DNA of 64,000 nt from Parcubacteria group bacterium GW2011_GWA1_56_13 (GTDB lineage Bacteria > Patescibacteriota > Minisyncoccia > Phycocordibacterales > Phycocordibacteraceae). The notes under the pieces are model-generated. The model was not told the origin of the DNA and ran no database searches. It saw only the letters and a list, made by a program, of their open reading frames with translations. The stretch lies in assembly GCA_001004905.1 (NCBI GenBank), contig LCRY01000003.1, positions 24,830 through 88,829 on the forward strand, written 5' to 3'. Of the stretch, positions 1,627 to 60,796 are shown one piece after another. Each line of letters starts with the position of its first letter. Position 1 is the stretch's first letter. The translations under genes were made by a program, and so were the position numbers.

Positions 1627-3585
1627 CTACATCCCGATAAGAACCGGGATGACCATCGGCGCTTTATTGGTGCGGGCGAAGAGGAACCCCGCGATGACAT
1701 CGGTCAGGTTGTTCTTCACATAATCGAGGTCGATCGGGTTCATATTGCGCGTGGAATCCTCGATGGTCTTCTTGATGAGGACGCGCGCCTCATTGAGAAG
1801 ATTCTGCGACTCGCGCAGATAGATGAAACCGCGACTGATGATGTCGGGCGACTTGCGCAGTTTCCCGGTCTTGAGGGCGACGCTCGCGATAATGACGAAC
1901 ATACCGTCCTTGGCGAGCGACTGGCGGTCGCGAATGACGACTTCCTGTATGTCGCCGATCGTAAAGCCGTCAACGACCATCGGCGCGGAAGGCACTTTTT
2001 GCTTGTGCACGTTCATCCGCTCGCCGTTCTCAATGTCGATGACCGTGCCGTTGTCCGGCACGATGATGTTCTCCTTCGGAAAGCCCGACTGTTCGACGGC
2101 CTTCGCATGGCAGCGCAGCATTGAGTGGTAGCCGTACGCGGGCATGAAGAACGTAGCCCCGACTTGCTTGTTGATCCAGACCAGCTCGCCTGTGTTGCCA
2201 TGGCCGGTCGAATGGACGTCGCTTGAGCGGTAGTGGATGAGCGTCACACCGTGACGGTAAAGATTGTCCTTCAGTTTCTGCACGGCTATCTCATTACCGG
2301 GGATGACGGAAGAGGACAGCACGATGGTGTCACGCTCGTTCAGGGTAATGTTCTTATGCTGTTCGGTGGCGATGCGCATCAGCGCCGCGAATTCTTCGCC
2401 CTGCGCGCCGGTGGAGAGAATGACGATCTTGTCCGGCGGATAATTGCCGATGTCCTGCGCGGGGATGATCGTCTCCTTCTTTATCTTGAGAAGGCCGGTT
2501 TTTTCCGCGATCTCGAGGTTGTTCCGGATGGAACGACCTTCGGTGACGATTTTTTTCCCGAGTTTTTCCGCCGCTTCCATGATGTGGATCATGCGTTCGA
2601 ACTGTGACGCGAATGTCCCAATGATGAGGCGACCGGAGACCGTCTTAATGATCTCCTCGAGCGTCTGGATGACGCGCTTCTCGGGAATGGAGAAACCGTC
2701 CTTTTCCGCGTTCGTCGAGTCGGCGATGAAGAAAATGTTTTTATCTTTGCCGATGGTGCCCCACGTCTTTACTTCATGCTCGGCGGGTACGCCATCATCA
2801 TGGTCGAGCTTCAGGTCGCCGGTGATGACGACATTGCCCTGCGGAGTCTCGACCGAAACACCCATCGAGTCGGGGATAGAGTGCGTGACCGGGAAGAATT
2901 TGACCCGAGTGCTCCCGATGGTCACGGATTGGCCGACTTCGACGGTGTGTATCTCGGATTTAGGCACGTCCGGATATTCTTCTTGCCGTCGCTGGATCAT
3001 GATACCAGTGAGATTCTGCGTATAGAGCGGAGGCGTTCCGAATCGCGGCAGTGTGAAGGGAATGCCGCCGATGTGGTCGAGATGTCCGTGAGTGATGATG
3101 ACGCCTTTCACGCGGTCGGCGTTCTTCTCCAGATATTTCGTGTTGGGGAGGATGTAATCGACCCCCGGGGAGGTATCCTCGGAAACGAATTGGAAGCCGG
3201 CGTCAAAGACGAGAATGTCGCCGGTCGCGCCCACTTCGACTGCGGTCATGTTACGGCCGACCTCTTCGACGCCTCCGAGCGGGATGATGCGGACCGTCGT
3301 TGGTCCTGCCGGTTCCGGAAAATAATCGGCGGCGCGGGGAACTCGGTTCGACTGGCTCATGGGACGGCGCAGGATGCGCTGAATGCGGCGCGACGCGCCG
3401 CCGGGGCGGGATGTTCCCCTTCCTCCTCGGTTCGAATGGCGGCCGCCTGGTTGCGAGCGGCCTCGTTCAGGCAGACCGCGCTCGAAACGCCGCGGCCCCC
3501 CCGGCCGCGGTGCACGCGATGGCGCCGGACGCGTGTATCCCGGAGTCGGTGCTGGTGCTGGTGCTGGTGCTGGTGCTGGATTCAT
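1627..3585 (-). CDS. rnj: Ribonuclease J (metallo-beta-lactamase / beta-CASP) with an Arg/Gly/Pro-rich N-terminal extension.
   Basis: HGHLDHIGG metal-binding motif; beta-CASP and RNase J C-terminal regions; 652 aa. The N-terminal ~100 aa are low-complexity (PAPAPAPAPAPTPG..RGGRG..). Confidence 0.85.
   Translation of the reverse strand: MNPAPAPAPAPAPTPGYTRPAPSRAPRPGGPRRFERGLPERGRSQPGGRHSNRGGRGTSRPGGASRRIQRILRRPMSQSNRVPRAADYFPEPAGPTTVRIIPLGGVEEVGRNMTAVEVGATGDILVFDAGFQFVSEDTSPGVDYILPNTKYLEKNADRVKGVIITHGHLDHIGGIPFTLPRFGTPPLYTQNLTGIMIQRRQEEYPDVPKSEIHTVEVGQSVTIGSTRVKFFPVTHSIPDSMGVSVETPQGNVVITGDLKLDHDDGVPAEHEVKTWGTIGKDKNIFFIADSTNAEKDGFSIPEKRVIQTLEEIIKTVSGRLIIGTFASQFERMIHIMEAAEKLGKKIVTEGRSIRNNLEIAEKTGLLKIKKETIIPAQDIGNYPPDKIVILSTGAQGEEFAALMRIATEQHKNITLNERDTIVLSSSVIPGNEIAVQKLKDNLYRHGVTLIHYRSSDVHSTGHGNTGELVWINKQVGATFFMPAYGYHSMLRCHAKAVEQSGFPKENIIVPDNGTVIDIENGERMNVHKQKVPSAPMVVDGFTIGDIQEVVIRDRQSLAKDGMFVIIASVALKTGKLRKSPDIISRGFIYLRESQNLLNEARVLIKKTIEDSTRNMNPIDLDYVKNNLTDVIAGFLFARTNKAPMVIPVLIGM
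3548..3580. repeat. Hexanucleotide repeat (GGTGCT)x5.5, encoding (Pro-Ala)n at the rnj 5' end.
   Basis: ggtgctggtgctggtgctggtgctggtgctgg is seen directly. On the minus strand it reads CCA GCA repeats. Confidence 0.8.
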
Positions 3586-3645
3586 ACTGATTGGTTGGTT
3601 ACTGGGCTTGCGAAACGAATAAATGAAACCCGTACGAAAAATGGT

Positions 3646-5367
3646 TCAGCGGCTGCGGTTAGCGAAGAACGGCCACACAGCATCGGTCGAGCGATACCAG
3701 GATGCTGCGGTCGCAAAGCGGTCGGCGGGTACGATGATCTGCGGAAGAGTGACGCCGGAGAGATCTTTCGGCACTGCATACGTGAAATCCGGCGCGTAAA
3801 TGAACGCGGCGGGATACTCGGCGGCGATGATGTCCTCGATCTTTTGAAGATCGTTCGTCCGCTTCGCGTCATCGGTCGAACTGCGGACGTTCGCAAGCAG
3901 AGCATCGACGGTTTTGTTCGCGTACAGCGCGATATTCAAACCGGGGTCATTGCGCTCATGCGAATCCCAAAATGCATAGAGGTCCTGGTCGCGGCCGATG
4001 ACCATGCCATAGAGCAGCGCTTCGTATTTGCGCGGTCGGATGATGTTTTGCGAAAGGTCGCCCGATTCATAGAGCTCGATAGTGACGGGGATACCGAGTT
4101 TCTCCCAATCCGCCTTTACGGCGCTCGCGACGCTTTTGAGCTCAGGTACGTTCGAAGTGCGCAGGGTGATGCCGTCGAGGGTCTGTTTGATGCCCGTATT
4201 CTTCCAGACGCGGTCAGAGCCGTCGTACGTCCATCCTGCCGCTTCAAGTACGCCGGCTGCTGCCATCGTCGGGTTCTGAAGTGCCGGAACCGGCGCCTGT
4301 CGCACCGATCCTCCCGGCGGGACCGGTCCCATGATGGCGGTCGCATACCCGCCGAATATCGAATCAACGATCGCCCGCCGGTCGAGCGCGAGCGAGAGCG
4401 CCTTGCGCACTTCGCTCCGCGCGTACACCTGCTTCTCGCTCGGGTTCCAAAACACGCCGAAGACCCGCGCGTACGGAGCAGTCAGCGCCCCTTTGTATGC
4501 AACGTCATATGCGCTCTCGATGTCCCCCTTGATAAGCGCGTTCGTCAGGTCCCCCGCCCGCGAATAGAAGTTGAAGCGGATTCGGTCGAGATAGGGCCGG
4601 CCAAACACGTAATAGGGATTTGCGGCGAGCGTCACATTCTCGATAAGCCCGGAAATGCCGCGCGAAACGTCCGCAACCTTAAAGGGTCCCGCGCCCACCG
4701 GGTTTGCTTGCAGGGTAGAGAAGGGGAATTCCTCGTCCGAAAGGTTTCTCCAGAGCCTGGCGGGGAGGATCCCGAGGGTCGTGAGCCCGAGGAACGGCGC
4801 ATAGGGCTTTGTGAGCGTGAAGCGCACGGTGCGTTGGTCCACCGCGACGACCAGCACGCCGGACCAGTCGGCATACCTCGGGCTCTTGAGCGCAGGGTCC
4901 TGCGCTTTCTGCACCGTGAAGACAACATCATCGGCATCTACTGGCGTGCCGTCCGAGAATTTCGCATTCTCGCGCAGAACGAAGGTATAGCTCTTGCCGT
5001 CAGGCGACGCTTCGTAGCTTTCCGCGAGCACGGGGACGAGCTCTCCCGTCCCGGAGATACCCATGAGGCCCGCGTAGGTGAGCGACGAGAGGTCGCGGTC
5101 CGCGTCGCTGATGGCAAGCAATGGATTGATGAACCGCGGGCTTCCTATCTCGCCTTCGACCAAAGTCCCTCCATAGGTAGGCACTTCCACGAGAAGCGAC
5201 TGTTCGAGGGCGTAGAGGCCGGAAAGCGAAGCGATGCAGACAAGACCTGCCAGAAGATAAAAGAGCACACGGTCTCCCGAGGACAGAGAGCGCACATGAG
5301 CGCCCGCGCGCTCAAGCGCCGGTATGCTCCGCCAGCGCTTGAGTTTCTCGCGCGTCTCGTCGTTCAT
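3646..5367 (-). CDS. ABC transporter substrate-binding protein, family 5 (peptide/nickel type), N-terminally membrane-anchored.
   Basis: 573 aa. N-terminal TM helix, then a family-5 solute-binding-protein-like domain. The 3' end overlaps secG by 4 nt. Confidence 0.7.
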   Translation of the reverse strand: MNDETREKLKRWRSIPALERAGAHVRSLSSGDRVLFYLLAGLVCIASLSGLYALEQSLLVEVPTYGGTLVEGEIGSPRFINPLLAISDADRDLSSLTYAGLMGISGTGELVPVLAESYEASPDGKSYTFVLRENAKFSDGTPVDADDVVFTVQKAQDPALKSPRYADWSGVLVVAVDQRTVRFTLTKPYAPFLGLTTLGILPARLWRNLSDEEFPFSTLQANPVGAGPFKVADVSRGISGLIENVTLAANPYYVFGRPYLDRIRFNFYSRAGDLTNALIKGDIESAYDVAYKGALTAPYARVFGVFWNPSEKQVYARSEVRKALSLALDRRAIVDSIFGGYATAIMGPVPPGGSVRQAPVPALQNPTMAAAGVLEAAGWTYDGSDRVWKNTGIKQTLDGITLRTSNVPELKSVASAVKADWEKLGIPVTIELYESGDLSQNIIRPRKYEALLYGMVIGRDQDLYAFWDSHERNDPGLNIALYANKTVDALLANVRSSTDDAKRTNDLQKIEDIIAAEYPAAFIYAPDFTYAVPKDLSGVTLPQIIVPADRFATAASWYRSTDAVWPFFANRSR

Positions 5368-5603
5368 GACCCCGCAAGAAGGAAGTTCGCTATCGCAGCG
5401 AGTACGAGGAGCAGCGCGATAACGATGGTCGCGTTGAACAAAAATTTTTCGGCGCCTCTGCGCTTGTAAAACGTTGACGCGAAGTTATCGCCTCCGAAGG
5501 CTCCGCCGAGGGTCGCGCCGCGCTGCTGCAGCACGATGCCGACGATGAGGAGTATTGAGAGGATGATTTCCGCGTACGGCAGTGCCGATACGAGTGCCTC
5601 CAT
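5364..5603 (-). CDS. secG: Preprotein translocase subunit SecG.
   Basis: MEALVSALPYAEIILSILLIVGIVLQQRGATLGGAFGG..., a two-TM SecG signature. Start refined to the internal Met; cat at 5601-5603. Confidence 0.75.
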   Translation of the reverse strand: MEALVSALPYAEIILSILLIVGIVLQQRGATLGGAFGGDNFASTFYKRRGAEKFLFNATIVIALLLVLAAIANFLLAGS

Positions 5604-5706
5604 CTTGATTGGGATGGTACCACGGCGGGGGAATGGGGCGCAAGCCAGTGTGTAAAGAAAACAGAACGCCGCGAGGTTCCCCGCGGCGCCGGACTGATTC
5701 CTTGTG

Positions 5707-6138
5707 CTACTTTTTTGCAGACAGCGCTTCGGCCGGTGCGGCGACGGCGACCGGTTTGCCGATAGCGACCGGTTGGCCGTCGACCAGGGCGAAGTACTCT
5801 GACGGCGGGGCCGGCGCCTTGACGCGGATTGCAAGAAACTGCTTTTTCACGACCCCTTTCACGAGAAGAACCTGATCCCCCCCGTCCTCGGTGGACGAGA
5901 TGACCTGGTACGCCGTCCCTTCCTTGAGCCGTGCCGTGAACTCCTCGGCTGAATACGGAATACGCCCGTAGCCGAACCCGTTGGGACTGAAGATTGCAGT
6001 GCCGAATACCACCAGAGCGAATGCCGTCAATATCCAGGGGAGAATGGAACCCACCTCTTTTTTCCCGGAGAGAACAACGGCTACCACCGTGACAATGACA
6101 CCGATAATGAAAAGAAACGTGACGTCCAACATGCCCAT
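5707..6138 (-). CDS. Hypothetical membrane protein (2 TM plus an extracytoplasmic beta-rich domain).
   Basis: The N-terminal half is hydrophobic; the C-terminal half is an Ala/Pro-rich soluble domain. No family recognised. Confidence 0.4.
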   Translation of the reverse strand: MGMLDVTFLFIIGVIVTVVAVVLSGKKEVGSILPWILTAFALVVFGTAIFSPNGFGYGRIPYSAEEFTARLKEGTAYQVISSTEDGGDQVLLVKGVVKKQFLAIRVKAPAPPSEYFALVDGQPVAIGKPVAVAAPAEALSAKK

Positions 6139-6323
6139 CTCCTCGTATTGATTACCACGGCGTTTCCCGCCGTGAGGAACTTCGTTTTGAAGAACTTTTT
6201 TAAGAATAGCATTCTATTTATTGTGTGTCAAGTCCAACATAGTTGCACGGAGACGGAACTTTCTCTATACTCCCTTCACGTGTGAAGAGGGCGTGATTAT
6301 TCATCTTATTTACATAGGACACT

Positions 6324-6629
6324 ATGGCTAAAAAGCTTTCGCTTGTGCCGCTCGGGGACCGCGTGGTCGTGGCGCCCGCCGACAAAGAGGGCGAGAAGAA
6401 ACTCGCCTCCGGCATCATCATTCCCGAGACGGTGGACAAAGAGAAGCCGGCGAAGGGCGAGGTCATCGCCGTCGGCCCGGGCAAATACGAAGACGGCAAG
6501 CGCATCCCGCTCCAGGTCAAGGTCGGCGATACCGTGCTCTTCAGCAAGTATGGCTACGACGAAGTGAAGATCGAAGGGCAGGAGTACTACATCCTCTCGG
6601 AGTCCAGTATTTTAGGTATCGTTAAATAA
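6324..6629 (+). CDS. groES: Co-chaperonin GroES.
   Basis: [54 protein letters not shown]...; 101 aa, immediately upstream of groEL. Confidence 0.95.
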
Positions 6630-8273
<1,644 letters not shown>

Positions 8274-8310
8274 TTGGCCGGCCGCTCATAGCGGATAGCG
8301 TATAGAAAGA

Positions 8311-8338
8311 GAAAGGCCCTGTGATACGGGGCCTTTCT
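8311..8338 (+). terminator. Hairpin downstream of groEL (weak intrinsic terminator).
   Basis: gaaaggccc-tgtgatac-gggcctttc stem-loop. The U-tract is short. Confidence 0.4.
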
Positions 8339-8540
8339 CGTCGGCGCGCTGGTCAGGGAAGCGTGCCGAGCGTGTGCCGCACGATGAATTGTTGTTGTTG
8401 GAAAAGGAATGCGCCGAACCGGTGCCGAAGGGTCTCCCACACCCCCCGTGCGATTTCGGAAGGTATATCGCCGTCGTTGCTGCGGTCTTTTCCCATCGCC
8501 ATCTTCCTCTTTATCGCGGGAATGTCAATTCGGTTCGGAG

Positions 8541-9053
8541 CTACCAGGAACTGCACGCGGGCTCGCCGCTACAAAGCATCCACGACCAGGTCGGGCGCAC
8601 CGGATCATAAAATGGCTGCCCCACGGCGGGGTAGCTTTCGGGAGTACCGTGCACCAGGAGCTTGTAATTCGTACCGTCGGAATTGTACAGATAGCCGTTG
8701 CAGCTCCCCGGTGCGGCCGGGTCGGTCGGGAGTACGGATATATATTTCGGCGTCAGCCCCCTAATATAGGCCTCCGCACCGCTCGTCTGTCCATTGCCCG
8801 GACCGCAGGGGACAGTGCTTACTCCGCTCCACGCTCCCGGGTGCGGCAACGGATAGGACCCATTGTCGACGTAGTACATGACGATGGCCGTCCGCAACTG
8901 CACCATGTCCTGCACGCGCTTCGTGTCCCGGGCTTTTATCCGCGCTCCGTTGAGGGTCCCGACGACGATGCTCGAAAGTATGCCGATGATGGAGATGACG
9001 ATCAGCAATTCGACGAGCGTAAATCCCCGGGCGCGCCTGTGTGCGTTGGTCAT
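8541..9053 (-). CDS. Type IV pilin-like protein (orphan, outside the main pilus cluster).
   Basis: Prepilin leader MTNAHRRARG|FTLVELLIVISIIGILSSIVVG, with the class III signal peptide and N-terminal hydrophobic helix. Start refined to 9053. Confidence 0.7.
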   Translation of the reverse strand: MTNAHRRARGFTLVELLIVISIIGILSSIVVGTLNGARIKARDTKRVQDMVQLRTAIVMYYVDNGSYPLPHPGAWSGVSTVPCGPGNGQTSGAEAYIRGLTPKYISVLPTDPAAPGSCNGYLYNSDGTNYKLLVHGTPESYPAVGQPFYDPVRPTWSWMLCSGEPACSSW

Positions 9054-9057
9054 ATCG

Positions 9058-9399
9058 TCAGATCTTTTCCAGGCGGGGCGGCGCGTTTGGGGGGTAGAGT
9101 ATCTTCTGCCCCGGCGGCGCTTTGAAAGTGGCATTACCGCCGTTGCCAAAGAGCATCATTCCCATGACAATGGCCAGCACTGCGATGAACGCGATAAGCA
9201 CGTACGCTATCTGCTTCTCGTTCTTGAGAAGGCCGCCGGAATGCTGCAGTATCCACAGAGTCGCTTTCGACGGCTCCGCGTAGGACACCCGACTCGGCTG
9301 CTGCCATTGCTCCTCTTCAAACTGCACTTTTGGGGGTTCATTCAGCGGGTCCATGGGTGCGGGGGTCTCCTGATGCTTCAATGGTAGCACCCGCCGCAC
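9058..9399 (-). CDS. Hypothetical small single-TM protein, upstream of and co-oriented with the orphan pilin.
   Basis: 113 aa, one TM helix (IAYVLIAFIAVLAIVMGMMLF). No family recognised. Confidence 0.35.
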   Translation of the reverse strand: MRRVLPLKHQETPAPMDPLNEPPKVQFEEEQWQQPSRVSYAEPSKATLWILQHSGGLLKNEKQIAYVLIAFIAVLAIVMGMMLFGNGGNATFKAPPGQKILYPPNAPPRLEKI

Positions 9400-9447
9400 A
9401 TGCCGGAGGGCCCCCGGTGGAGAATCGGATGCTTCGCGGAAAGTTAT

Positions 9448-9567
9448 GCCGGCAAGGACGATGCGGCTTCCGCCGCCGCGCTCCTTCTTACCACCGAAGC
9501 GGCAGTCGCTGACATCCCGGAGTCGAAAAAGGAAGCACCCGCAGGAGAAATGGGGATGGACTACTGA
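9448..9567 (+). pseudogene. Truncated duplicate of the groEL 3' end (C-terminal ~39 codons).
   Basis: The gccggcaaggacgatgcgg...ttccgccgccgcgctccttcttaccaccgaagcggcagtcgctgaca segment is near-identical to groEL 8010-8030 plus 8166-8215. It reads [39 protein letters not shown] and is followed by its own terminator. Confidence 0.75.
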
Positions 9568-13553: not shown

Positions 13554-13647
13554 GTGTTTTACACAGGGGGCCCGCGTGCGGCCCGAAAACGGGTCATACT
13601 ATACGGAGCGGACCACCACCCCCGCTTTAACCATCTCATTCATCCGC

Positions 13648-13878
13648 ATGAAATTACATGCAATAGAGTTCATCCTCGTCATTGTCGGCGCCCTCAACTG
13701 GGGTCTCGTCGGCATCGGGGGCTTCCTGGGCGGCAACTGGAACGTCGTGAACCTCATCCTCGGCGGCTGGCCGCAGGTCGAGTGGATCGTCTACATCCTT
13801 GTCGGCCTCTCGGCCGTCGGCCTCATGTTTGGCCATAAAAAAGAGTGCCGTTCCTGCAACCCGTCGGGAATGATGTAA
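13648..13878 (+). CDS. DUF378-family small membrane protein.
   Basis: MKLHAIEFILVIVGALNWGLVGIGGFLGGNWNVVNLILGG...; start refined to the internal ATG at 13648. Confidence 0.55.
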   Translation: MKLHAIEFILVIVGALNWGLVGIGGFLGGNWNVVNLILGGWPQVEWIVYILVGLSAVGLMFGHKKECRSCNPSGMM

Positions 13879-14265
13879 GTGCGCGCCTCGCGCAGTTGAA
13901 GAACCGCCGACGCTTCGCGTCGGCGGTTTTTGTGTGCGGAGGGGGAGGGAACGCGATTACGCTTTCGAAACCTACAGTTTCAGTACACCTTGCGGATAGT
14001 TCGCTTCAGGAAATCGCGAACTATGCTCGCAAGGTCTTCGAATCCCCCACGTCCTGCCCCCGGCAGGACTCCCCCGCAGTTTCGCTGCGCTCGTTGCGGG
14101 GACGATACCCGGAACTTTGAACTAAAAACATGGCTCACATTCGAGAATCTTGATAAAAGTATACGCGAATTGAGAGCTATGTTCAAGCAACACCCTCAAT
14201 GGTTTGAGGTGCCTAAACCAAAGTCAGACAAGGGTAAAAACGTGGTTAATTATTCTGTTTGAACA

Positions 14266-14784
14266 TTACATCTGACTTTTTGCTTCCTCGTTCTTCTGTT
14301 TCGCTTTTCTCAAAATAGAAACTAATATCTTGGTATATTCTTTTATCCGTGTGTGCTCTTGATTGTCCACATTACGCATTACATCATCTAGAAAATCGTA
14401 TCTAATTTTCGTGAAATTTTCTATATAAACTTCTTTGTCGTCAGTAGTGATAATTTTATATTGGCTACCATCTTCGGTTATTTCCTTTACATCCAACTCT
14501 TCCAAGTTGGTTACGAGTGCTCCCTTTATTGTTGTTATATCGTGTCCTAACTCTCTTAACCTGTCATTGAGGGCTTTTTTATCGGAAAAACTGTTTAGCA
14601 TTACTACCCTGGATTTTAAAATAAGTTCAAAGTTATGGGATAACAAAATATAGAATGACCTTAGATAAGCTATGTCAGTCACATTATTCATTACTCTAGA
14701 TAAAGAATCTTCTATAAACGAAAGTCCTGTAGAAGCTACACTTGTGAGAGCATAAGCATATTTATGTTTTTCTAAGGGTGTCAT
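14266..14784 (-). CDS. Hypothetical protein encoded in the AT-rich islet.
   Basis: 172 aa, K/E/D-rich, with no recognisable family. Composition differs sharply from the flanking high-GC DNA. Confidence 0.45.
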   Translation of the reverse strand: MTPLEKHKYAYALTSVASTGLSFIEDSLSRVMNNVTDIAYLRSFYILLSHNFELILKSRVVMLNSFSDKKALNDRLRELGHDITTIKGALVTNLEELDVKEITEDGSQYKIITTDDKEVYIENFTKIRYDFLDDVMRNVDNQEHTRIKEYTKILVSILRKAKQKNEEAKSQM

Positions 14785-14789
14785 ATTTA

Positions 14790-16052
14790 TTAATTAATAT
14801 CCTTCCTAAACTGTTTTCCTTCGAAGTTTACCAGCTCGACCACTTTGTAGGCTTTCTGTCGTGCCCCATCGAGACTGCTCCCAGAAGCGCTAACTCCAAA
14901 TACTCTGCCGCCATTGGTTACAATCTTTCCATCTTCAGATTTTGTACCTGCATGAAAGACAACTACATCGTCAATATTTTCCGCTTTGGCGATACCGGTG
15001 ATTGGTAACCCCTTCGGATACTTCCCCGGATAACCTGGTGAAGCCAGTACGACGCAACAAGCTGACTTAGATTCCCATTCAATCTGGGTCGAAGATAATT
15101 TTCCTTCAACACAAGCCAGCAAAATCTCGACGAGATCAGTCTTGAGAATCCGCATGTAAGACTGAGTTTCCGGATCTCCAAAGCGGACATTAAACTCCAA
15201 TACCTTTGGTCCCTCTTTGGTGAGCATGATGCCAGGAAAGAGGACGCCTTTAAACGGTCGGCCCATTCTTTTGAGCTCTTGGAGAATCGGCATAACAATC
15301 TCTTGCTTTATTTGGTCCAAAACATTCTTAGAAACTCCTGGCACAGGTGCAATCGTCCCCATGCCACCCGTATTCGGCCCTTTGTCGTTGTCAAAAATTC
15401 TTTTGTGATCTTGCGCGGATGGGAACATGACCGCCGTCTCTCCATCACAGAAGGCGTGGGTTGAGATCTCTTCGCCTTGCAGAAATTCTTCGATAATTAC
15501 CGTCTCACCAGCAGCTCCAAAGGTCTTTTGAGTCATCATTTCTTCCAAAGCCTGTTCGGCTTCTTCTTGCGTTTGTGCAATAACCACGCCCTTACCCAAA
15601 GCAAGACCACAAGCTTTTATGACCAGAGGATATTCATGATCTCGTATATATTCCTTCGCTTTTTCTATATCAGTAAAAGTCTTAGACTTTGCCGTCGGGA
15701 TATTAAGACGCTCAAGCAAATCTTTAGCAAAAGATTTCGACCATTCTATTTCAGCAGCTTCTTTGGTTGGGCCGAAAACTTTTATCTTTTCGCCCTGAAG
15801 CGAATTCACAATACCTAACGCTAGGGCGTCATCAGGACCGACAACTACCAAGTTTATTTCTTTCTTTTTTACGCACTCAATAATGGCCTGATGGTCTGAA
15901 ATGTCGACCGATATATTTTCTCCCAACTCGGCAGTTCCTGGATTGCCAGGGGCAGTAAATATTTTCTTAACCCTTGGGGACTGCTTTAACTTCCACGCAA
16001 GAGCGTGTTCTCGTCCACCGGAACCAATGACTAAAATGTTCATATTTTTCAT
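14790..16052 (-). CDS. purD: Phosphoribosylamine--glycine ligase (GAR synthetase, ATP-grasp).
   Basis: MNILVIGSGGREHALAWKL...NTGGMGTIAPVP... Start refined to MKNMNIL (cat at 16050-16052). The upstream in-frame extension is antisense to the tRNA (the GFESLP motif). Confidence 0.9.
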   Translation of the reverse strand: MKNMNILVIGSGGREHALAWKLKQSPRVKKIFTAPGNPGTAELGENISVDISDHQAIIECVKKKEINLVVVGPDDALALGIVNSLQGEKIKVFGPTKEAAEIEWSKSFAKDLLERLNIPTAKSKTFTDIEKAKEYIRDHEYPLVIKACGLALGKGVVIAQTQEEAEQALEEMMTQKTFGAAGETVIIEEFLQGEEISTHAFCDGETAVMFPSAQDHKRIFDNDKGPNTGGMGTIAPVPGVSKNVLDQIKQEIVMPILQELKRMGRPFKGVLFPGIMLTKEGPKVLEFNVRFGDPETQSYMRILKTDLVEILLACVEGKLSSTQIEWESKSACCVVLASPGYPGKYPKGLPITGIAKAENIDDVVVFHAGTKSEDGKIVTNGGRVFGVSASGSSLDGARQKAYKVVELVNFEGKQFRKDIN

Positions 16053-16071
16053 AGGTTCAAAGTTGCCAATC

Positions 16072-16163
16072 TGGCGGAGGGGGAGGGATTCGAACCCTCG
16101 ATGCGGTTTTATCCGCATAGCGAGTTAGCAACCCGCCGCACTAGGCCTCTATGCGACCCCTCC
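16072..16163 (-). tRNA. tRNA-Ser (anticodon GCT), class II with a long variable arm.
   Basis: Hand-folded: acceptor GGAGGGG/CCCCTCC; D stem CGCA/TGCG; anticodon stem GCGGG/CTCGC with loop TTGCTAA; variable-arm hairpin ATGCGG-ATAA-AACCGCAT; T arm GAGGG-TTCGAAT-CCCTC; encoded CCA. Confidence 0.8.
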
Positions 16164-16263: not shown

Positions 16264-16683
16264 TCAGCTTGTCTTTCGGAGTTTGGGAGGAACGACGCCG
16301 TAATCGGAGAGCGGTTTCAGTTCGCTGCACGGTCCGAAGGGATTTGCGACCGAAAGTTGGTTCGTTTCGAGCGCCCGTATCGTTGCTTGCCGGTTCATCC
16401 GGTAGAGCTCCTCGATGAACGATATATAGTACCTTTCGACGCTGTCGAGCGCGGCTCCTTGGACGCCAGCCGGTAGTCCGTTGGACTTGCGTATTGTACG
16501 TTTGCACTCTCCACGCAAATCCTGGATTATCTCGGTAAACGGGTAGTCCAGTCGCCGGGCGAGCTGGTCGTCGATGCTTCTGCCGAGATCGATTCGATTC
16601 CTGATGTCACGCACCGCGTTCAGCACTGCCCCGAAGAGCAGAGCAAGCAGGACACCGGCCAACACCAGCTTCCATGGTTCCAT
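16264..16683 (-). CDS. Hypothetical membrane-anchored protein.
   Basis: N-terminal TM helix (LVLAGVLLALLFGAVL) followed by a soluble domain. Confidence 0.4.
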   Translation of the reverse strand: MEPWKLVLAGVLLALLFGAVLNAVRDIRNRIDLGRSIDDQLARRLDYPFTEIIQDLRGECKRTIRKSNGLPAGVQGAALDSVERYYISFIEELYRMNRQATIRALETNQLSVANPFGPCSELKPLSDYGVVPPKLRKTS

Positions 16684-16754
16684 CTGGAACTCCTTCTCCT
16701 GTGGTTGTCGGAACGCTTCTGCCGCAATAATTTACCTATTTCCTAAAAAGTCAA

Positions 16755-16865
16755 CCCGCCGCACCAGGTCACGCGTCATTTTCTGCTGAAAATGCGCGCG
16801 ACCCCGCCTCGCTCCGTCGAGCTCCGGCCCTTCGAACCTCCGGTTCGAAGCTCTATGCGACCCCT
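16755..16865 (-). pseudogene. tRNA-Ser 5'-half-like fragment interrupted by a ~70-nt insert.
   Basis: On the minus strand it reads GGAGGGGTCGCATAGAG-[70 nt]-TGGTGCGGCGGGTTGAC. This matches the first ~35 nt of the tRNA-Ser at 16072-16163 (ctctatgcgacccctcc and caacccgccgcac are repeated). Confidence 0.45.
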
Positions 16866-17171
16866 CCGTATTACGCCACAGTATCAAATTTCGCGTTTAA
16901 GGGCGAGCCCGGAACGCTTGCCAAAAAAATTTCTGAGCGCTAGGTTAAGGGTAGGTCGTCTCTCACCTGCCGGTCGTCGGACATTCCTTATCCGTGGCCG
17001 GTAGAGGGCGCCTGTATGCCATCGCTCGCTCGCCCGGCGACATTGCCCCGCCGCAGAGTGTGGTAAAGCGATGGGACCTGCGGGGGTGCCCACAAAGCTT
17101 TCCCCGCACCTATGCCAAAGTCATGCCTCCGGCATGACTTTCTTTTTTACCATCCGAAGGGAGCGAGTTCA

Positions 17172-34539: not shown

Positions 34540-35733
34540 ATGCGCATACTTTCAAACGATTATCTTTCCAGTGTCCCTGGTTCAGGAATTAATGTGAAAG
34601 GCGGCCCGGCTAGGTTCGCCGCTGATTTTTCCACCGTCGCTATTTCACAAGGGCATGAATGGATAGGACTCTTACATAATCCGGAATCCGGCGAATATCA
34701 AGAGCGTGCCGTCGCTGGGGGAAAGCGATTTTTTTCAATTAATGCACCGTCCGTTACCATTGAAGGTTTACGCGAATTGCGCGAACCCTTGGCGCCAGAA
34801 GCATATTTGGCCGAAGACATTAATTCCGTAAAAGACCTCTTCAAAGAACTGCGGGGAGACGTCCTATTCTTAAACGGTTTTTCGGCGTACGCGTGGCTTT
34901 TGTTTGCTGCCGCCCGTGAAATCGGACTGCCCGTCGTTATACAGCACGCCGGAATTTTCAGTCGAGAAGTGGAAGAATATGCTGATTTATTCACCCGAGC
35001 AGGCAGGGAACTGTGCTTTGCTATGGAAAAAGACGCAGCGGAATATGCTGCAGCAAATATTTTTCTGAACGAATTCAGCAAAAAAGCGTTTGAGCGAATC
35101 GTGCAAACCCGCACGGTCTCCAATCCCCACATCATCCCGCTGCCTCATCCGGGCTGGCCGTTTGAGGACGCGGCAGGGCCAAAAAAGAGAAAAGAGCGAG
35201 TACTGGGCGTCGTCGCAAGGTGGGACCGTATTAAAAATCATGAAGCGATTTTGGCATTAGCTGAAACGCTGCGAGAGACGAACGTGCCGTGGCGCATCAG
35301 AAGCGTCACCTCTATACCCGACACGGCGGTACATACAGAATTCAAGTCCCGCTATCGGAATTGCATTGAGATCGTGCCGCCTATGAGCCATACCGCACTA
35401 ATGGATTTTTACCAGTCAGTTGACGTAATCATCCTCCCTTCACACTTTGATGTTTCGCCGACCGTCGTCATGGAGGCGGCTTCTCTCGGTGTGCCGACGC
35501 TGATCTCTCCGAACGTCGGTTGGGTAAGCGAATACGAGCATTGCGGCATGGAGGAGTGGATTGCCGATTTCAGTCGGCCGCACGATGTCGTTCGTCGCCT
35601 CGAAAAACATTTTATCCGTACGGAATGGCCAGAAACAAAACGATTTGCAGAATATATAAAAAAATGTCATGATCCTGCAATAGTATACAGATCATATTTA
35701 ACCCTTCTCAAGGGAACTTCTATCGCAACATAA
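34540..35733 (+). CDS. Glycosyltransferase, GT4-like (GT-B fold).
   Basis: C-terminal donor-binding region (DVIILPSHFDVSPTVVMEAASLGVPTLIS, the E-x7-E-like motif). Confidence 0.6.
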   Translation: MRILSNDYLSSVPGSGINVKGGPARFAADFSTVAISQGHEWIGLLHNPESGEYQERAVAGGKRFFSINAPSVTIEGLRELREPLAPEAYLAEDINSVKDLFKELRGDVLFLNGFSAYAWLLFAAAREIGLPVVIQHAGIFSREVEEYADLFTRAGRELCFAMEKDAAEYAAANIFLNEFSKKAFERIVQTRTVSNPHIIPLPHPGWPFEDAAGPKKRKERVLGVVARWDRIKNHEAILALAETLRETNVPWRIRSVTSIPDTAVHTEFKSRYRNCIEIVPPMSHTALMDFYQSVDVIILPSHFDVSPTVVMEAASLGVPTLISPNVGWVSEYEHCGMEEWIADFSRPHDVVRRLEKHFIRTEWPETKRFAEYIKKCHDPAIVYRSYLTLLKGTSIAT

Positions 35734-35738
35734 TATTC

Positions 35739-36821
35739 ATGCGCGTTGCCCAACTCGCTCCTAGCTATCATTCCGTTTCTCCGCTCTTCAATAAAGCGAT
35801 TTATTCGCACATTGCATGGCTTGCGAACGGCCTCGTCGATCTCGGACATGACGTTCACCTTTTTGCCTCAAGCGATTCAGAAACAAAGGCGGTATTGCAC
35901 GGCGTGAGCGAATCCTTATCGAAACTCAATCTCCCCGAGGATATCGCCCGTTACTACATGTTGCTCACCATATCCTCTTGTTATGCATACGCGCGCACCT
36001 CATCCGACATCATTCACTCCCATTTCAATCTCCTCTCTTCGTTCGTTTCTCAGATCAGCGATGTGCCGACGGTTACCTCGGTGCACAGCCCCATTACCGA
36101 CAGGACCCGCCCTCTGTTGGAGCACTTCAAGAATGAGCGCTACATTTCTTTTTCTCTAGCCCAGCGAAAACAGATGCCGAATCTGAACTGGTATGCAAAT
36201 ATATACCACGGTGTTGATACGGCGCTGTTCGCGTTTAACCCAGACCCGGAAGAGTATCTGCTGTATCTCGGCAGAGTGACGGAAGAAAAAGGCATTCATT
36301 TCGCTATTGAAGCCGCGAAGGTCACAGGAATGCCGCTCTATATTGTCGGTGCCAGTTATCCCGCAGAAGGGTATTGGCAAAAGCATGTCGAACCGCACAT
36401 CGACGGCCGTATGATCAGATTTTTAGGCGAAGCGTCGTTTGAAAGAAAAATTCCTCTTTTTCAGAATGCAAAAGCTCTCCTTTTTCCGACGCAGGCAGAT
36501 GAAGTATTCGGGTATTCGATGATAGAAGCGATGTCGTGCGGTACGCCAGTCATCGGCTTTGCCAACGGCTCCGTTGCGGAGATTGTCAAACACGGCATTG
36601 CCGGTTTTGTGGTTAATGATGTGGAAGAAATGGTAGAGGCCATTAAACATTTAGATGAGATCGACAGAATGAAAGTGCGCAAACGCGCAGAAATATATTT
36701 CAGCGTGGAAAAAATGGTTTCCGGATATGAGAAAGTCTATAAACGCGTTTTGGACGACGAGACCTTCTTGCAGCGTAAGCGTGACGAGAACGCGAACATG
36801 TCGTCCGATTCCCTAAAATGA
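35739..36821 (+). CDS. Glycosyltransferase family 4.
   Basis: LGRVTEEKGIHFAIEA...FPTQADEVFGYSMIEAMSCGTPVIGFANGSVAEIV, the canonical GT4 C-terminal domain. Confidence 0.75.
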   Translation: MRVAQLAPSYHSVSPLFNKAIYSHIAWLANGLVDLGHDVHLFASSDSETKAVLHGVSESLSKLNLPEDIARYYMLLTISSCYAYARTSSDIIHSHFNLLSSFVSQISDVPTVTSVHSPITDRTRPLLEHFKNERYISFSLAQRKQMPNLNWYANIYHGVDTALFAFNPDPEEYLLYLGRVTEEKGIHFAIEAAKVTGMPLYIVGASYPAEGYWQKHVEPHIDGRMIRFLGEASFERKIPLFQNAKALLFPTQADEVFGYSMIEAMSCGTPVIGFANGSVAEIVKHGIAGFVVNDVEEMVEAIKHLDEIDRMKVRKRAEIYFSVEKMVSGYEKVYKRVLDDETFLQRKRDENANMSSDSLK

Positions 36822-39358: not shown

Positions 39359-39429
39359 AGCGGGGTAGAGGAGAGGTACCTCGGGAGGCTCATAACCTCC
39401 AGACGCCGGTTCGATTCCGGCCCCCGCAA
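39359..39429 (+). tRNA. tRNA with anticodon CAT (Met, or Ile2 if lysidinylated).
   Basis: Hand-folded: D stem GAGG/CCTC; anticodon stem GGAGG/CCTCC with loop CTCATAA; T arm GCCGG-TTCGATT-CCGGC; acceptor AGCGGGG/CCCCGCA (an A1.A72 mismatch). No encoded CCA. Confidence 0.7.
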
Positions 39430-39442
39430 CACGATTGGAAAT

Positions 39443-39470
39443 GGCGCCGTGAGGCGCCTTTTCCTTTTCT
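39443..39470 (+). terminator. Intrinsic terminator directly after the tRNA.
   Basis: ggcgcc-gtga-ggcgcc hairpin followed by ttttccttttc. Confidence 0.6.
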
Positions 39471-39473
39471 TGT

Positions 39474-39705
39474 TGCGGGGGAGCGAAGCGCCTGCGCGCT
39501 TCGCGTCCGGAATCGAATGCCGGAACATGTTTCAGTCGGCAGACTGAAACGGTGAGGCTGTGCCCAGACCTCGGCGAGCGACGGCGAGCCGAGAGTCGAG
39601 GGAGATAAGTCGTAATCGACGGTCCGGCCCCCGCAACACGGTTGTGACGCCAGGAACCAGTACCGACAGGGGTCAAACCCAGTACAGTACCGGCCCCCTC
39701 GGTCA
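39474..39705 (+). ncRNA. Unassigned structured-RNA candidate between two terminators.
   Basis: No plausible ORF: the only long frame is antisense and carries tRNA-antisense GIEPAS motifs. It starts at a 5' GCGGGGG. At 39626-39632 there is a CCCCCGC complementary to it, inside an 18-nt 3' segment (tccggcccccgcaacacg) that duplicates the tRNA 3' end. T-arm-like hairpins are present. It ends just before the terminator at 39709-39743. Confidence 0.25.
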
Positions 39706-39708
39706 CCA

Positions 39709-39743
39709 GAAAAAGCGCCTACATGCTAGAGGCGCTTTTTCTG
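39709..39743. terminator. Bidirectional intrinsic terminator.
   Basis: aaaaagcgcctacatgctagaggcgctttttctg. Confidence 0.65.
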
Positions 39744-39893
39744 TTATGCAGCAAACGCAACATATTTCCAGTTCGATTCCGACTCTCGTATTCGCCGCAC
39801 CTTCGTGTCGCAATCACAGAAATCCGGTTCAATAGTTCCGTCCCCCTCTGGGGGGCGGGAATGCTCGACTCGCGCTATACTGCGGACAAATAC

Positions 39894-40436
39894 ATGACCC
39901 TCCACTTCATCACAGGTAACAAAAACAAGCTCGCAGAAATGCGGACGATGCTTGGGAGTGTCGAGCAACTTGATATTGAACTGCCGGAGATTCAGGAGAT
40001 CGATGCGCACGAAGTTATCAAAGCGAAACTCAAAGCAGCTACTCAGCACCATACGGGCGCACTTATTGTCGAAGACACTTCGCTTTCCCTCGACGCCCTT
40101 AACGGTCTCCCAGGACCACTTGTTAAGTGGTTTTTAAAAACGATTGGGAATGACGGTCTTTTTAAGATTGCGGAAGCTTTTGGTAACTATGGTGCTGAAG
40201 CGAAGACTATTATTGGCTATACCTCTGGCGACGGAGCAATCCAATTCTTTGAGGGGTCAGTCAGGGGTACGATAGTCGCTCCTCGGGGTGATACTGTCTT
40301 TGGCTGGGACCCGATCTTTCGGCCTGAAGGAAAAGATAAAACCTACGCTGAACTATTTGATGCAGATGAGGCCGAGAAGAATTCAATAAGCATGCGCAGA
40401 CTCGCCGCCGAGAAATTAAAGGCACATTTATCATGA
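39894..40436 (+). CDS. rdgB: Non-canonical purine NTP pyrophosphatase (RdgB/Ham1 family).
   Basis: LHFITGNKNKLAEM...EDTSLSLDALNGLPG...FGWDPIF; start refined to ATG 39894. Confidence 0.85.
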   Translation: MTLHFITGNKNKLAEMRTMLGSVEQLDIELPEIQEIDAHEVIKAKLKAATQHHTGALIVEDTSLSLDALNGLPGPLVKWFLKTIGNDGLFKIAEAFGNYGAEAKTIIGYTSGDGAIQFFEGSVRGTIVAPRGDTVFGWDPIFRPEGKDKTYAELFDADEAEKNSISMRRLAAEKLKAHLS

Positions 40437-46062: not shown

Positions 46063-46079
46063 ATCACAGGAGTGCACAT

Positions 46080-46481: not shown

Positions 46482-46487
46482 ATCGCC

Positions 46488-47048: not shown

Positions 47049-47054
47049 ATCTCC

Positions 47055-60499: not shown

Positions 60500-60646
60500 G
60501 CGTTCGGAGAAAATGCTTACACGAGGACGTGCAGTCATTTTTCCTCGCTCGCTGGCGTAAGCGTTGATTGCACGCTTTCGTTCAGCTCGCTCGGAGAACA
60601 TGCGTGTGCGAAGACGCATCCGCATATTTCCTCGCTCGCTGGCGTA
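60500..60646 (+). repeat. Tandem ~86-87-bp duplication of the tRNA upstream region plus the first ~10 nt of the tRNA.
   Basis: tcggagaaaatgc...ttcctcgctcgctggcgtaag (60504-60561) is repeated as tcggagaacatgc...ttcctcgctcgctggcgtagc (60591-60646). The second copy continues into the tRNA. Confidence 0.65.
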
Positions 60647-60711: not shown

Positions 60712-60796
60712 CTTGAATTCAATGGGAAACTTACAAACTTGAACGTTTGTGTGGATGAACAATGGTTATAGTAATATCCTGTCATAAACTGTGTAG

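What the first reader, a model, noticed from the sequence alone, without database searches (positions are those of the whole stretch)
14100..16163. AT-rich islet abutting tRNA-Ser that carries a solitary purD and an unknown 172-aa protein
Base composition falls sharply from >60% GC to roughly 35-40% GC over ~14100-16070. The islet ends exactly at the 3' end of tRNA-Ser(GCT) (16072-16163, minus strand), a classic integration site. It encodes a full-length phosphoribosylamine-glycine ligase (purD) with no other pur genes nearby, plus a K/E-rich 172-aa protein (14266-14784) with no recognisable family that could be, for example, an Abi-like or accessory factor. No integrase remains, which suggests an old or decayed insertion. 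A lone purD in what looks like a reduced genome is metabolically odd and worth explaining, for instance as a moonlighting or salvage role or as recent acquisition.
Basis: partly seen in the sequence, partly recalled or inferred. Interest (0 to 1): 0.6.

Follow-up and report, generated by a model that had tools for sequence, protein, structure and literature searches.

The report
Foreign purD cassette at tRNA-Ser
A 2-kb AT-rich piece of foreign DNA carrying a purine-synthesis gene (purD) and an unknown 172-aa protein has been spliced into the end of a serine tRNA gene of a Kaiserbacteria (CPR) genome. The same building blocks recur behind tRNA genes in many other CPR bacteria without any integrase, which points to an undescribed way these tiny bacteria swap genes.

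Summary
tRNA-Ser(GCT) (16072-16163, minus) is followed on the same strand by purD (14790-16052, GC 0.45) and a 172-aa ORF (14266-14784, GC 0.33, the lowest in the window), in a genome of GC 0.58.

The islet is modular. It consists of a conserved trailer, purD, the 172-aa gene "F", and a ~170-nt end element "E" (14092-14261) that ends in a tRNA-Ser-like ...CGTCCCCGC. These are followed by 145 nt of GC-rich DNA and an exact 15-nt copy of the tRNA 3' end (13936-13950) next to the native terminator.

Each module recurs elsewhere in Patescibacteria:
- tRNA-Ser|trailer|purD|(F, DUF5677 or nothing)|E occurs in two other GC-rich genomes.
- guaA-F-E lies in a four-E array behind tRNA-Ser in Giovannonibacteria.
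- F is the last gene of AT-rich, tRNA-anchored, co-oriented islets in 18 of 27 informative loci (background 13%), often beside restriction or Shedu genes.

No integrase and no other pur gene were found among about 51 of the window's 70 long ORFs.

Best reading: site-specific insertion and accretion of integrase-less cargo at a tRNA gene, resembling tycheposon-type island growth but with new hallmark modules. F has no known family, with only a weak HEPN-like fold. E is unexplained. Whether purD is a metabolic orphan cannot be decided from 64 kb.

The parts
16072..16163 (-). tRNA-Ser(GCT), intact. It anchors the islet. It encodes CCA, whereas 3 of the 4 other tRNAs of the window and its own remnant do not.
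   Evidence: ARAGORN; Rfam 51.3 bits; tRNA 3' ends
16044..16071 (-). Conserved 'trailer' GATTGGCAACTTTGAACCTATGAAAAAT between the tRNA 3' end and purD. There is no terminator or promoter-like site in it. Its TTTGAACC is the inverted copy of the T-loop GGTTCGAA (7 of 8 in the window).
   Evidence: Alignment A2. The same trailer follows tRNA-Ser in L001, L004, L015, L065-L067 and L072, and follows E1 in L004. Inverted-repeat geometry. Promoter/terminator scan.
14790..16052 (-). purD (phosphoribosylamine-glycine ligase), full length, GC 0.447, GC3 0.425. This is the cargo gene.
   Evidence: Pfam; PDB sequence search; homologues; composition
14266..14784 (-). Gene F: a 172-aa protein of an uncharacterised Patescibacteria family, GC 0.331. 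It starts 5 nt after purD. NCBI annotated it as only 111 aa.
   Evidence: 95 homologues at 40-85% identity plus the identical 111-aa NCBI product; 127 representatives; AF2 model pLDDT 90.8; no family
14092..14261 (-). Element E: a ~170-nt conserved end module, always in the orientation of the tRNA and cassette genes. It ends ...GTTCAAAGTTCCGGGTATCGTCCCCGC at 14096. On the + strand (14095-14262) it carries a 55-codon reading frame without a conserved start.
   Evidence: blastn; alignment; nhmmer; codon-position test; 136 database ORFs
13951..14095 (.). 145-nt GC-rich piece (0.57-0.63) between E and the tRNA remnant, inside the repeat-bounded unit. I interpret it as flanking DNA carried over from a GC-rich donor. 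It contains a hairpin at 14051-14067 and a T-loop/acceptor-like string at 14037-14058 on the + strand.
   Evidence: Composition; sequence; repeats; no match in any fetched locus
13936..13950 (-). Remnant of the tRNA-Ser 3' end (TCCCTCCCCCTCCGC, 15 of 15). It is followed by CACAAAAACC and the terminator, with no CCA. This is the displaced native tRNA end (attR-like).
13899..13931 (.). Hairpin terminator shared by the convergent DUF378 gene (13640-13878, +) and, before the insertion, the tRNA.
   Evidence: Inverted repeat I5; sequence; DUF378
16749..16867 (-). Fragment of the 5' half of the same tRNA-Ser (17/17 and 16/17 nt blocks split by 82 nt), upstream of the intact gene. This is a second recombination scar at this tRNA.

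Best explanation
The islet is horizontally acquired cargo that was spliced by site-specific recombination into the 3' end of tRNA-Ser(GCT).

The incoming DNA supplied the present CCA end plus a conserved trailer, then purD, gene F and the end element E, together with 145 nt of a previous GC-rich host. The native tRNA end was pushed 2.1 kb downstream, where 15 nt of it survive next to the native terminator.

The recombinase is not in the islet. It acted in trans or was on a part that left again. This is how tRNA-seeded islands grow by accretion.

The recombination site is the stretch between two inverted arms. The left arm is the T-loop GGTTCGAA, or its mimic GGTTCAAAGT at the end of E. The right arm is TTTGAACC in the trailer. 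The tRNA acceptor end CCGCCA lies between them.

purD and F have no promoter or terminator of their own. They are probably read from the tRNA promoter and released by tRNA 3' processing (inferred).

purD is a normal GAR synthetase that circulates with its trailer among Paceibacteria. F is a separate module that marks the distal end of such islets. Its most likely role is a defence or addiction factor, possibly a HEPN-like nuclease (about 0.3).
For: 1. Foreign composition: F has z -5.4 and purD z -2.9, with GC3 of 0.32 and 0.43 against 0.67 for the host.

2. An exact 15-nt repeat of the tRNA 3' end bounds the unit. The remnant lacks CCA, as do 3 of the 4 other tRNAs, while the working tRNA has CCA plus the trailer.

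3. The same architecture, tRNA-Ser|trailer|purD|...|E followed by DNA of higher GC, occurs in two other GC-rich genomes. In L065, E abuts a hairpin like the native one here, with purD GC 0.44 against host 0.60. In L072, DUF5677 replaces F.

4. The five trailer-linked purD genes are 76-84% identical to each other whether the host is GC 0.39 or 0.60. Their ranking disagrees with the neighbouring PilM: for L065, purD 81% and PilM 44%; for L067, 79% and 65%.

5. In L004 a 47-nt direct repeat (tRNA end plus trailer, first 26 nt identical) brackets a first cassette. Four E copies separate successive gene sets that include guaA-F.

6. There is a 13-nt perfect inverted repeat around the junction of E and the trailer. 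The same geometry, with the T-loop as left arm, is seen at real tRNA-Ser genes.

7. F has a same-strand tRNA within 4.1 kb upstream in 18 of 27 informative unique loci, against a 13% background (p = 2.5e-10), and never an opposite-strand one. The AT-rich stretch runs from the tRNA end to the end of F.

8. The published model of tRNA-seeded additive islands describes exactly such leftovers, including flanking DNA from other hosts (bioRxiv 10.1101/2020.12.28.424599).

9. The window has three more AT-rich, co-oriented stretches right behind tRNAs.
Against: - No recombinase was found in the islet, in the scanned window ORFs, or within 6 kb in the related loci whose gene tables were read. The one exception is a serine recombinase 3 kb from purD in L071.
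- Only the window shows a long repeat of the tRNA end. In 15 other F loci the best match is at chance level; one (L015) has a 9-nt match that is rare in its controls but lies in the variable arm, not at the tRNA 3' end.
- purD behind tRNA-Ser beside PRTase/pilM is syntenic in at least four genomes, including one without the trailer (L069). This also fits vertical descent.
- The 25-28 nt between the inverted arms is long for a tyrosine-recombinase core.
- Neither E nor F was found on viral contigs, and no excised or empty form has been seen.
- The PilM comparison rests on one marker.
Confidence: 0.62

Rival explanations
1. purD is native and vertically inherited at this locus as an old tRNA-Ser/purD operon of Paceibacteria. 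Only F plus E are a recent insertion downstream of it. The low GC of purD has another cause.
For: The order PRTase/pilM - tRNA-Ser(GCT) - purD is shared by the window, L065, L067 and L069/L070, with purD identity from 61 to 81%. F and E occur without purD in more than 60 loci, and purD occurs without F. F is much more AT-rich than purD.
Against: - purD GC3 is 0.43 against 0.67 +/- 0.10 for the host, and 0.36 in L065, whose host is also GC 0.60. A resident gene should have ameliorated.
- The 15-nt remnant and the CCA/no-CCA difference place purD inside the inserted unit.
- The same trailer precedes guaA and other genes in other phyla.
- purD identities do not follow PilM identities.
Confidence: 0.2
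2. Allelic replacement by homologous recombination. A foreign tRNA-Ser/purD region from another Paceibacterium replaced the resident one, using the conserved tRNA and flanks as anchors, with no site-specific recombinase involved.
For: The position is conserved. The cluster of purD alleles is tight and star-like (76-84%) across hosts. No integrase was found. A 145-nt GC-rich stretch of apparently foreign flank is present.
Against: - Double-crossover replacement does not create a direct repeat of the tRNA end or leave the native end behind.
- 15 nt is too short for RecA-type exchange (established knowledge).
- The 47-nt att-like repeats and four serial E copies in L004 indicate additive insertion.
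Confidence: 0.1
3. Assembly or binning chimera: an AT-rich fragment from another organism joined to a GC-rich contig at a conserved tRNA.
For: The composition breaks sharply at a conserved sequence (the tRNA), and the source is a metagenome assembly.
Against: - Both junctions lie inside one contig, with host genes on both sides.
- The same AT-rich tRNA-Ser/purD/E arrangement in GC-rich flanks is seen in two independent assemblies (L065 from NCBI, L072 from Logan).
- The remnant plus native terminator give a coherent insertion scar.
Confidence: 0.02

Closest known systems
tRNA-seeded additive genomic islands and tycheposons of Prochlorococcus (Hackl et al., bioRxiv 10.1101/2020.12.28.424599)
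   Same: A streamlined genome. Islands start at the 3' side of full-length tRNA genes. Partial tRNA copies are present. Cargo covers metabolism and defence. Leftover material, including flanking DNA from other hosts, accretes next to the tRNA, and most of it lacks an integrase.
   Different: No tycheposon hallmark is seen here or in any related locus: no tyrosine recombinase and no replication module. The units are 1-3 genes long. They carry their own conserved boundary modules (trailer, E) and a recurrent terminal gene (F). The host is Patescibacteria.
Classical tRNA-integrating genomic islands and prophages (P4-type integrases; Williams 2002, cited from memory and)
   Same: Insertion at the tRNA 3' end, regeneration of an intact tRNA, a direct repeat of the tRNA end at the far boundary, and atypical composition.
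   Different: No integrase, only 2.1 kb, no phage or conjugation genes. The repeat is only 15 nt. The site seems to extend about 25 nt beyond the tRNA into a conserved trailer.
Integron gene cassettes (attI/attC, IntI)
   Same: Promoterless, co-oriented ORFs in series. Each set ends in a conserved ~170-nt element (four in a row in L004). Expression is presumably from one upstream promoter. There is no recombinase inside the cassettes.
   Different: No IntI was found. E does not fold like attC (z -1.9 as DNA) and evolves like coding DNA. The array starts at a tRNA gene, not at attI.
SSV-type archaeal integration, in which attP lies inside the integrase gene and integration splits the gene (from memory)
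   Same: A reading frame (X, inside E) that is cut off exactly at a tRNA-like core sequence at the edge of the integrated DNA.
   Different: X has no similarity to integrases. No N-terminal partner and no intact version exists among 5.8e9 proteins. The fragment is the C-terminal 55 aa only.
HEPN-domain nucleases / Abi-type defence effectors
   Same: F is a small, mostly helical protein. Its top Foldseek PDB hits are HEPN proteins (4nqf, 2hsb). It often sits beside restriction enzymes and Shedu.
   Different: The matches are weak (E 0.3, TM 0.41-0.47). The R-x6-H of close homologues is not conserved across the family, whose invariant residues are H81 and R128. No HEPN profile matches.

Membership tests
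Integrase-mediated tRNA-targeting genomic island | Inserted at the 3' end of a tRNA gene, which stays intact | tested here: met
   The tRNA-Ser is intact (51.3 bits) and the AT-rich DNA starts at its 3' end
Integrase-mediated tRNA-targeting genomic island | Direct repeat of the tRNA 3' segment at the distal boundary | tested here: met
   15/15 nt at 13936-13950 and 16074-16088. This is shorter than the usual ~40 nt.
Integrase-mediated tRNA-targeting genomic island | Site-specific integrase encoded in the island | tested here: not met
   The island has only purD and F. No recombinase family appeared among about 51 of the window's 70 long ORFs
Tycheposon | Lineage-specific tyrosine (or large serine) recombinase facing inward at one end, plus an optional replication module | tested here: not met
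   None here or in the related loci whose gene tables were read
Tycheposon | Cargo for adaptation or phage interference next to a tRNA, with partial tRNAs | tested here: met
   purD as cargo; F loci with restriction and Shedu genes; partial tRNA copies
Integron cassette array | IntI integrase with attI at the head of the array | tested here: not met
   Arrays start at tRNA-Ser. No integrase lies within 6 kb in L004-L006
Integron cassette array | attC: an imperfect palindrome that folds as a single-strand hairpin at the end of each cassette | tested here: not met
   E folds no better than shuffles (z -1.9 as DNA, -1.4 as RNA) and shows a codon-position pattern. Only the E/trailer junction has a 13-nt inverted repeat
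Integron cassette array | Serial, co-oriented, promoterless ORFs separated by the recombination element | tested here: met
   Four E copies at 4233-4401, 6526-6695, 8502-8603 and 9357-9475 in L004, all co-oriented with the genes
PurD / GAR synthetase (EC 6.3.4.13) | GARS_N, GARS_A (ATP-grasp) and GARS_C domains, full length | tested here: met
   134, 272 and 111 bits, all above the Pfam cut-offs. End-to-end alignment to 11 solved PurD sequences
PurD / GAR synthetase (EC 6.3.4.13) | Works within a de novo purine pathway (purF upstream, purN/purT downstream) | not testable with these tools
   Only 64 kb of the genome is available and it holds no other pur gene. The literature reports complete modules in 32% of CPR MAGs
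HEPN nuclease | Conserved R-x4-6-H motif at the start of the last helix | tested here: not met
   R137-x6-H144 is present in close homologues but is not conserved across 72 representatives. The invariant residues are H81 and R128
HEPN nuclease | Four-helix up-down HEPN fold | tested here: inconclusive
SSV-type partitioned integrase | The split ORF is an integrase, and both halves flank the element | tested here: not met
   X has no integrase similarity and no N-terminal half anywhere

The most novel reading that the evidence does not exclude
Patescibacteria possess an integron-like gene-exchange system. Small promoterless cassettes (nucleotide-metabolism genes such as purD and guaA, and defence genes) are inserted one after another at tRNA genes by a still unidentified recombinase. 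That recombinase recognises the T-loop/trailer inverted repeat. Element E carries the tRNA-end mimic that regenerates the site, and the tRNA promoter drives expression. The uncharacterised family F, always the last gene of such islets, could be part of that machinery rather than cargo.
Probability: 0.15. Interest if true: 0.85.

Novelty: new variant of a known kind. Interest (0 to 1): 0.6.

Why it matters
CPR/Patescibacteria have tiny genomes, depend on hosts for nucleotides, and carry few recognisable mobile elements, so how they gain genes is poorly understood.

This locus shows that core metabolic genes (purD here, guaA elsewhere) and defence genes travel as very small, integrase-less units. 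These units land behind tRNA genes and carry conserved boundary sequences.

If the trailer/E site and its recombinase can be identified, they would explain much of the AT-rich variable DNA in these genomes and offer a handle for genetic tools in uncultivated lineages.

The work also defines two widespread uncharacterised sequence families. F has at least 127 clusters at 50% identity, and E/X has at least 136 ORFs.

Finally, it warns that metabolic reconstructions of CPR MAGs may count recently imported, mobile pathway genes.

Tried and rejected
- purD and F as a conserved gene pair: rejected. tblastn of purD found it in none of 64 F loci.
- F as a known family: no hit in Pfam (1 plus 72 members), PADLOC, PHROGs or PDB sequence profiles. 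Foldseek against PDB gives only weak HEPN hits and against BFVD gives nothing.
- F related to the DUF5677 protein that replaces it in L072: hhalign probability 0.1.
- F as a tyrosine or serine recombinase or a HUH enzyme: considered from the conserved R/H/Y residues. Rejected because no recombinase fold appears among the Foldseek hits and the order of secondary-structure elements does not fit (inference).
- Long repeats of the tRNA end behind F in 16 other loci: all but one at chance level.
- Cassette presence/absence between L004 and L005: they are collinear, and the difference lay only in gene calling.
- E as a structured RNA or attC: z -1.4 and -1.9, and no Rfam hit.
- E as the end of a longer protein: no ORF longer than 97 aa among the 120 hits listed, and the N-termini are unrelated. 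AF2 gives a single helix. The weak MUG113 and HARP similarities are not significant.
- E or F on viral contigs: none.
- The 145-nt GC-rich piece in other loci: no match.
- Literature on purD in Patescibacteria or on integrons in CPR: nothing specific.
Full report
**Observation.** The composition drop is real and sharp. 100-nt windows go from 0.59-0.63 just left of 14100 to 0.28-0.41 across 14100-14850 and 0.36-0.52 across purD, then return to 0.57-0.61 at 16050 (1-kb profile). ARAGORN and Rfam place tRNA-Ser(GCT) at 16072-16163 on the minus strand. On the same strand, purD follows after 19 nt (14790-16052; the listed ORF to 16118 overlaps the tRNA). Five nt later comes a 172-aa ORF, here called F (14266-14784). 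purD has all three GARS domains and aligns end to end with solved PurD proteins. F matches no Pfam, PADLOC or PHROG family. Against 55 other ORFs of the window (GC 0.576 +/- 0.045, GC3 0.668 +/- 0.095), F (0.331 and 0.318) is the most deviant ORF and purD (0.447 and 0.425) the third.

**Organism.** Identical proteins identify the window as a 63.8-kb contig of a Candidatus Kaiserbacteria MAG, a member of the CPR/Patescibacteria.

**Boundaries and scars.** GCGGAGGGGGAGGGA occurs at 13936-13950 and at 16074-16088, and these are the only two matches in the window even with two mismatches allowed. Read on the minus strand, the remnant continues CACAAAAACC into the hairpin terminator of the convergent DUF378 gene and has no CCA. 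The working tRNA continues CCA-GATTGGCAACTTTGAACC. Three of the four other tRNAs of the window also lack an encoded CCA. I read this as follows: the native tRNA-Ser ended at the remnant, and the present CCA end came in with the insert.

The repeat-bounded unit (13951-16073) holds four things beyond the tRNA end:
- the trailer;
- purD and F;
- a 170-nt AT-rich element E (14092-14261);
- 145 nt of GC-rich DNA (13951-14095) that matches nothing fetched.

A second scar lies upstream of the tRNA. It is a copy of the tRNA's 5' half (17/17 and 16/17 nt) interrupted by 82 nt, at 16749-16867.

**purD elsewhere.** purD is not a one-off. Its best homologues (54-84% identity over nearly the full length among the 120 listed) carry Patescibacteria names wherever a source names them, with one exception. 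Seven homologue places were inspected, and in none is another purine-pathway gene adjacent; the one contig without DNA carries a second GARS_A/GARS_C paralogue about 1 kb downstream.

In the four closest loci with DNA, a tRNA-Ser gene sits immediately upstream on the same strand. These are L065, L067 and L072 with anticodon GCT and L066 with GGA. The 20-30 nt between the tRNA and the start codon are conserved. L065 and L067 have GC 0.60 flanks and L072's flank rises to 0.52-0.61 beyond E; purD has GC 0.44 in L065 and L072 and 0.52 in L067. In L065 a truncated E follows the purD stop and abuts a hairpin like the native one here. In L072 the order is purD, a DUF5677 protein, E, then DNA of higher GC.

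**Synteny and incongruence.** The window shares the neighbourhood pilM / PRTase / tRNA-Ser / purD with L065, L067 and the Zambryskibacteria locus L069. The position is therefore recurrent or old. The alleles, however, do not behave as residents. The five trailer-linked purD genes are 76-84% identical to each other whether the host has GC 0.39 or 0.60. Their ranking also contradicts the neighbouring PilM: for L065, purD 81% and PilM 44%; for L067, 79% and 65%.

**Gene F.** F has 95 homologues at 40-85% identity, plus an identical 111-aa NCBI product, and 127 representative clusters at 50% identity. Nearly all are 160-200 aa, and all named ones are Patescibacteria of several classes. It was found in only 12 of 185,579 species genomes and on no viral contig.

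It is never next to purD elsewhere. In 64 loci its GC is 0.28-0.42 whatever the host (0.30-0.57). The gene in front of it is highly variable and often also AT-rich. The neighbours include:
- a Shedu SduA (E 1e-158) and a type I S subunit;
- type II restriction enzymes in four loci;
- a type IIG enzyme;
- guaA, proteases and small membrane proteins.

Most striking is the tRNA link. In 18 of 27 informative unique loci a tRNA gene (Ser, Ala, Lys, Val, Leu, Gln, Ile, Thr or Trp) lies within 4.1 kb upstream. It is always on the same strand, against a 13% background in the same loci (p = 2.5e-10). Where the contrast allows, the AT-rich stretch runs from the tRNA 3' end exactly to the end of F (L002 0.53/0.33/0.52; also L008, L018, L030, L015). 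F is thus the terminal gene of tRNA-anchored islets.

Its AF2 model is confident (pLDDT 90.8): helical, with a three-stranded insert. The only fold hints are weak HEPN matches. The R-x6-H of close homologues is not conserved in the wider family, whose invariant residues are H81 and R128. I cannot assign a function. By association, a defence or addiction role is the best guess.

**Element E and the site.** E recurs in the same orientation in several places:
- behind F in L001, L004, L019 and L073/74;
- behind purD or DUF5677 in L065 and L072;
- four times in series in the Giovannonibacteria locus L004;
- twice in L025.

All copies end in GGTTCAAAGTYCCGGGCATCGTCCCCGCCAG, and similarity between copies stops there. 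This end shares C(C/T)CCGCCAG and a T-loop-like GGTTCAAA with tRNA-Ser 3' ends, but it is not a tRNA by the covariance model.

In L004 the tRNA-Ser end plus trailer is repeated as a 47-nt direct repeat at the end of E1, with the first 26 nt identical. This repeat brackets a first gene set, and guaA-F-E2 follows. The junction of E1 and the trailer forms a perfect 13-nt inverted repeat with 28 nt between the arms. At real tRNA-Ser genes the T-loop and the trailer form the same geometry, with 9 nt in L067 and 8 nt in L001. Two inverted arms around the break point are what a recombinase core site looks like. An RNA hairpin that links tRNA processing to translation of the first gene is an alternative I cannot exclude.

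**The frame inside E.** E is odd in one respect. Its differences between copies fall 15/20/42% on the codon positions of a + strand frame. That 55-aa frame is conserved at 60-93% in 136 database ORFs. Yet conservation begins abruptly at the tRNA-like end, there is no conserved start, no ORF longer than 97 aa appears among the 120 listed, and the predicted structure is a single helix. This remains unexplained.

**Mechanism.** The simplest account of all this is additive, site-specific insertion at the tRNA gene by a recombinase supplied in trans. Later arrivals insert next to the tRNA, and earlier ones are pushed distally. This is the model proposed for tRNA-seeded islands of Prochlorococcus, which explicitly predicts integrase-less leftovers and flanking DNA from other hosts.

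*Shown:* foreign composition, the scar, the recurrent modules, the serial arrays and the tRNA association.

*Inferred:* the recombinase, the exact crossover, and co-transcription from the tRNA promoter. For the last point, no terminator lies between the tRNA, purD and F, and a strong terminator sits upstream of the tRNA.

*Against the model:* no recombinase in the window, no long repeats at other F loci, and no excised or empty form observed.

**Metabolic question.** The 64 kb hold no other pur gene. However, complete de novo purine modules are reported for about a third of CPR MAGs (PMC11608272). The orphan status of purD is therefore undecided.

**The pattern is not unique in this window.** AT-rich, co-oriented genes also follow tRNA-Met 39359 (Ham1, HIT, beta-lactamase fold), tRNA-Met 60638 (a LAGLIDADG ORF) and tRNA-Asp 61469 (DUF6624).

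**Verdict.** This is a real, non-artefactual foreign islet at a tRNA gene, and in kind a tRNA-seeded genomic islet. It is a new variant because of its minimal size, its lack of any mobility gene, and its conserved, previously undescribed modules (trailer, F, E) that are spread across Patescibacteria.

Noticed in passing
window 16749-16867 (minus), with ORF 16264-16683 and terminator 16253-16231: A copy of the 5' half of tRNA-Ser(GCT): 17/17 nt of the 5' end and 16/17 nt up to the anticodon stem, split by an 82-nt insert. It lies 600 nt upstream of the intact tRNA, and a 139-aa GC-rich ORF of unknown family sits between them. It looks like a scar of a second event at the anticodon-loop sublocation.
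   Followed up: partly
window 39359-41927: tRNA-Met is followed on the same strand by an AT-rich (GC 0.485) trio: Ham1/ITPase, a HIT hydrolase and a beta-lactamase-fold protein. This is another tRNA-anchored islet with nucleotide-housekeeping cargo.
   Followed up: partly
window 60638-62268: tRNA-Met is followed by an AT-rich LAGLIDADG_3 ORF (60797-61483, GC 0.448), then tRNA-Asp and an AT-rich DUF6624 ORF (61687-62268). There is no rRNA gene nearby (Rfam scan), so this is a free-standing homing-endonuclease-like gene between tRNAs.
   Followed up: no
window 34540-36821: Two adjacent glycosyltransferase genes have GC 0.49 in a GC 0.60 neighbourhood, with no tRNA next to them. This is probably a replaceable surface-polysaccharide islet.
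   Followed up: no
window 46023-48455: An archease - LigT (2'-5' RNA ligase family) - RtcB cluster, which is an RNA/tRNA repair module. It is of interest if F or other islet genes are tRNA-directed nucleases.
   Followed up: no
window 14037-14058 (+ strand): TTCGAATCCCCCACGTCCTGCC inside the 145-nt GC-rich piece resembles the T-loop plus acceptor 3' strand of a tRNA in the opposite orientation. It overlaps a hairpin at 14051-14067.
   Followed up: no
L004 (Giovannonibacteria MFIE01000023) 2231-9475: A serial array behind tRNA-Ser(GGA): S51 peptidase / His_Phos_1 / 208 aa | E1 | guaA, F | E2 | ... dCMP deaminase | E3 | 163 aa | E4. A 47-nt direct repeat of tRNA end plus trailer lies at 2313-2359 and 4392-4438.
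   Followed up: yes
JGI contig of P0099 (purD 84% identical; no DNA available): A second protein with GARS_A and GARS_C but no GARS_N (444 aa) lies 1 kb downstream of purD, after a SET-domain gene. It is a purD paralogue of unknown role.
   Followed up: no
window 14266-14784 versus NCBI product P0056: The public annotation calls only the C-terminal 111 aa of gene F. All homologues conserve the full 172 aa, including the N-terminal 60 residues.
   Followed up: yes
L071 9623-10942: A large serine recombinase (Resolvase, Recombinase, Zn_ribbon_recom) lies 3.3 kb downstream of a purD that has no adjacent tRNA-Ser or trailer. It is the only recombinase seen near any purD or F locus.
   Followed up: no
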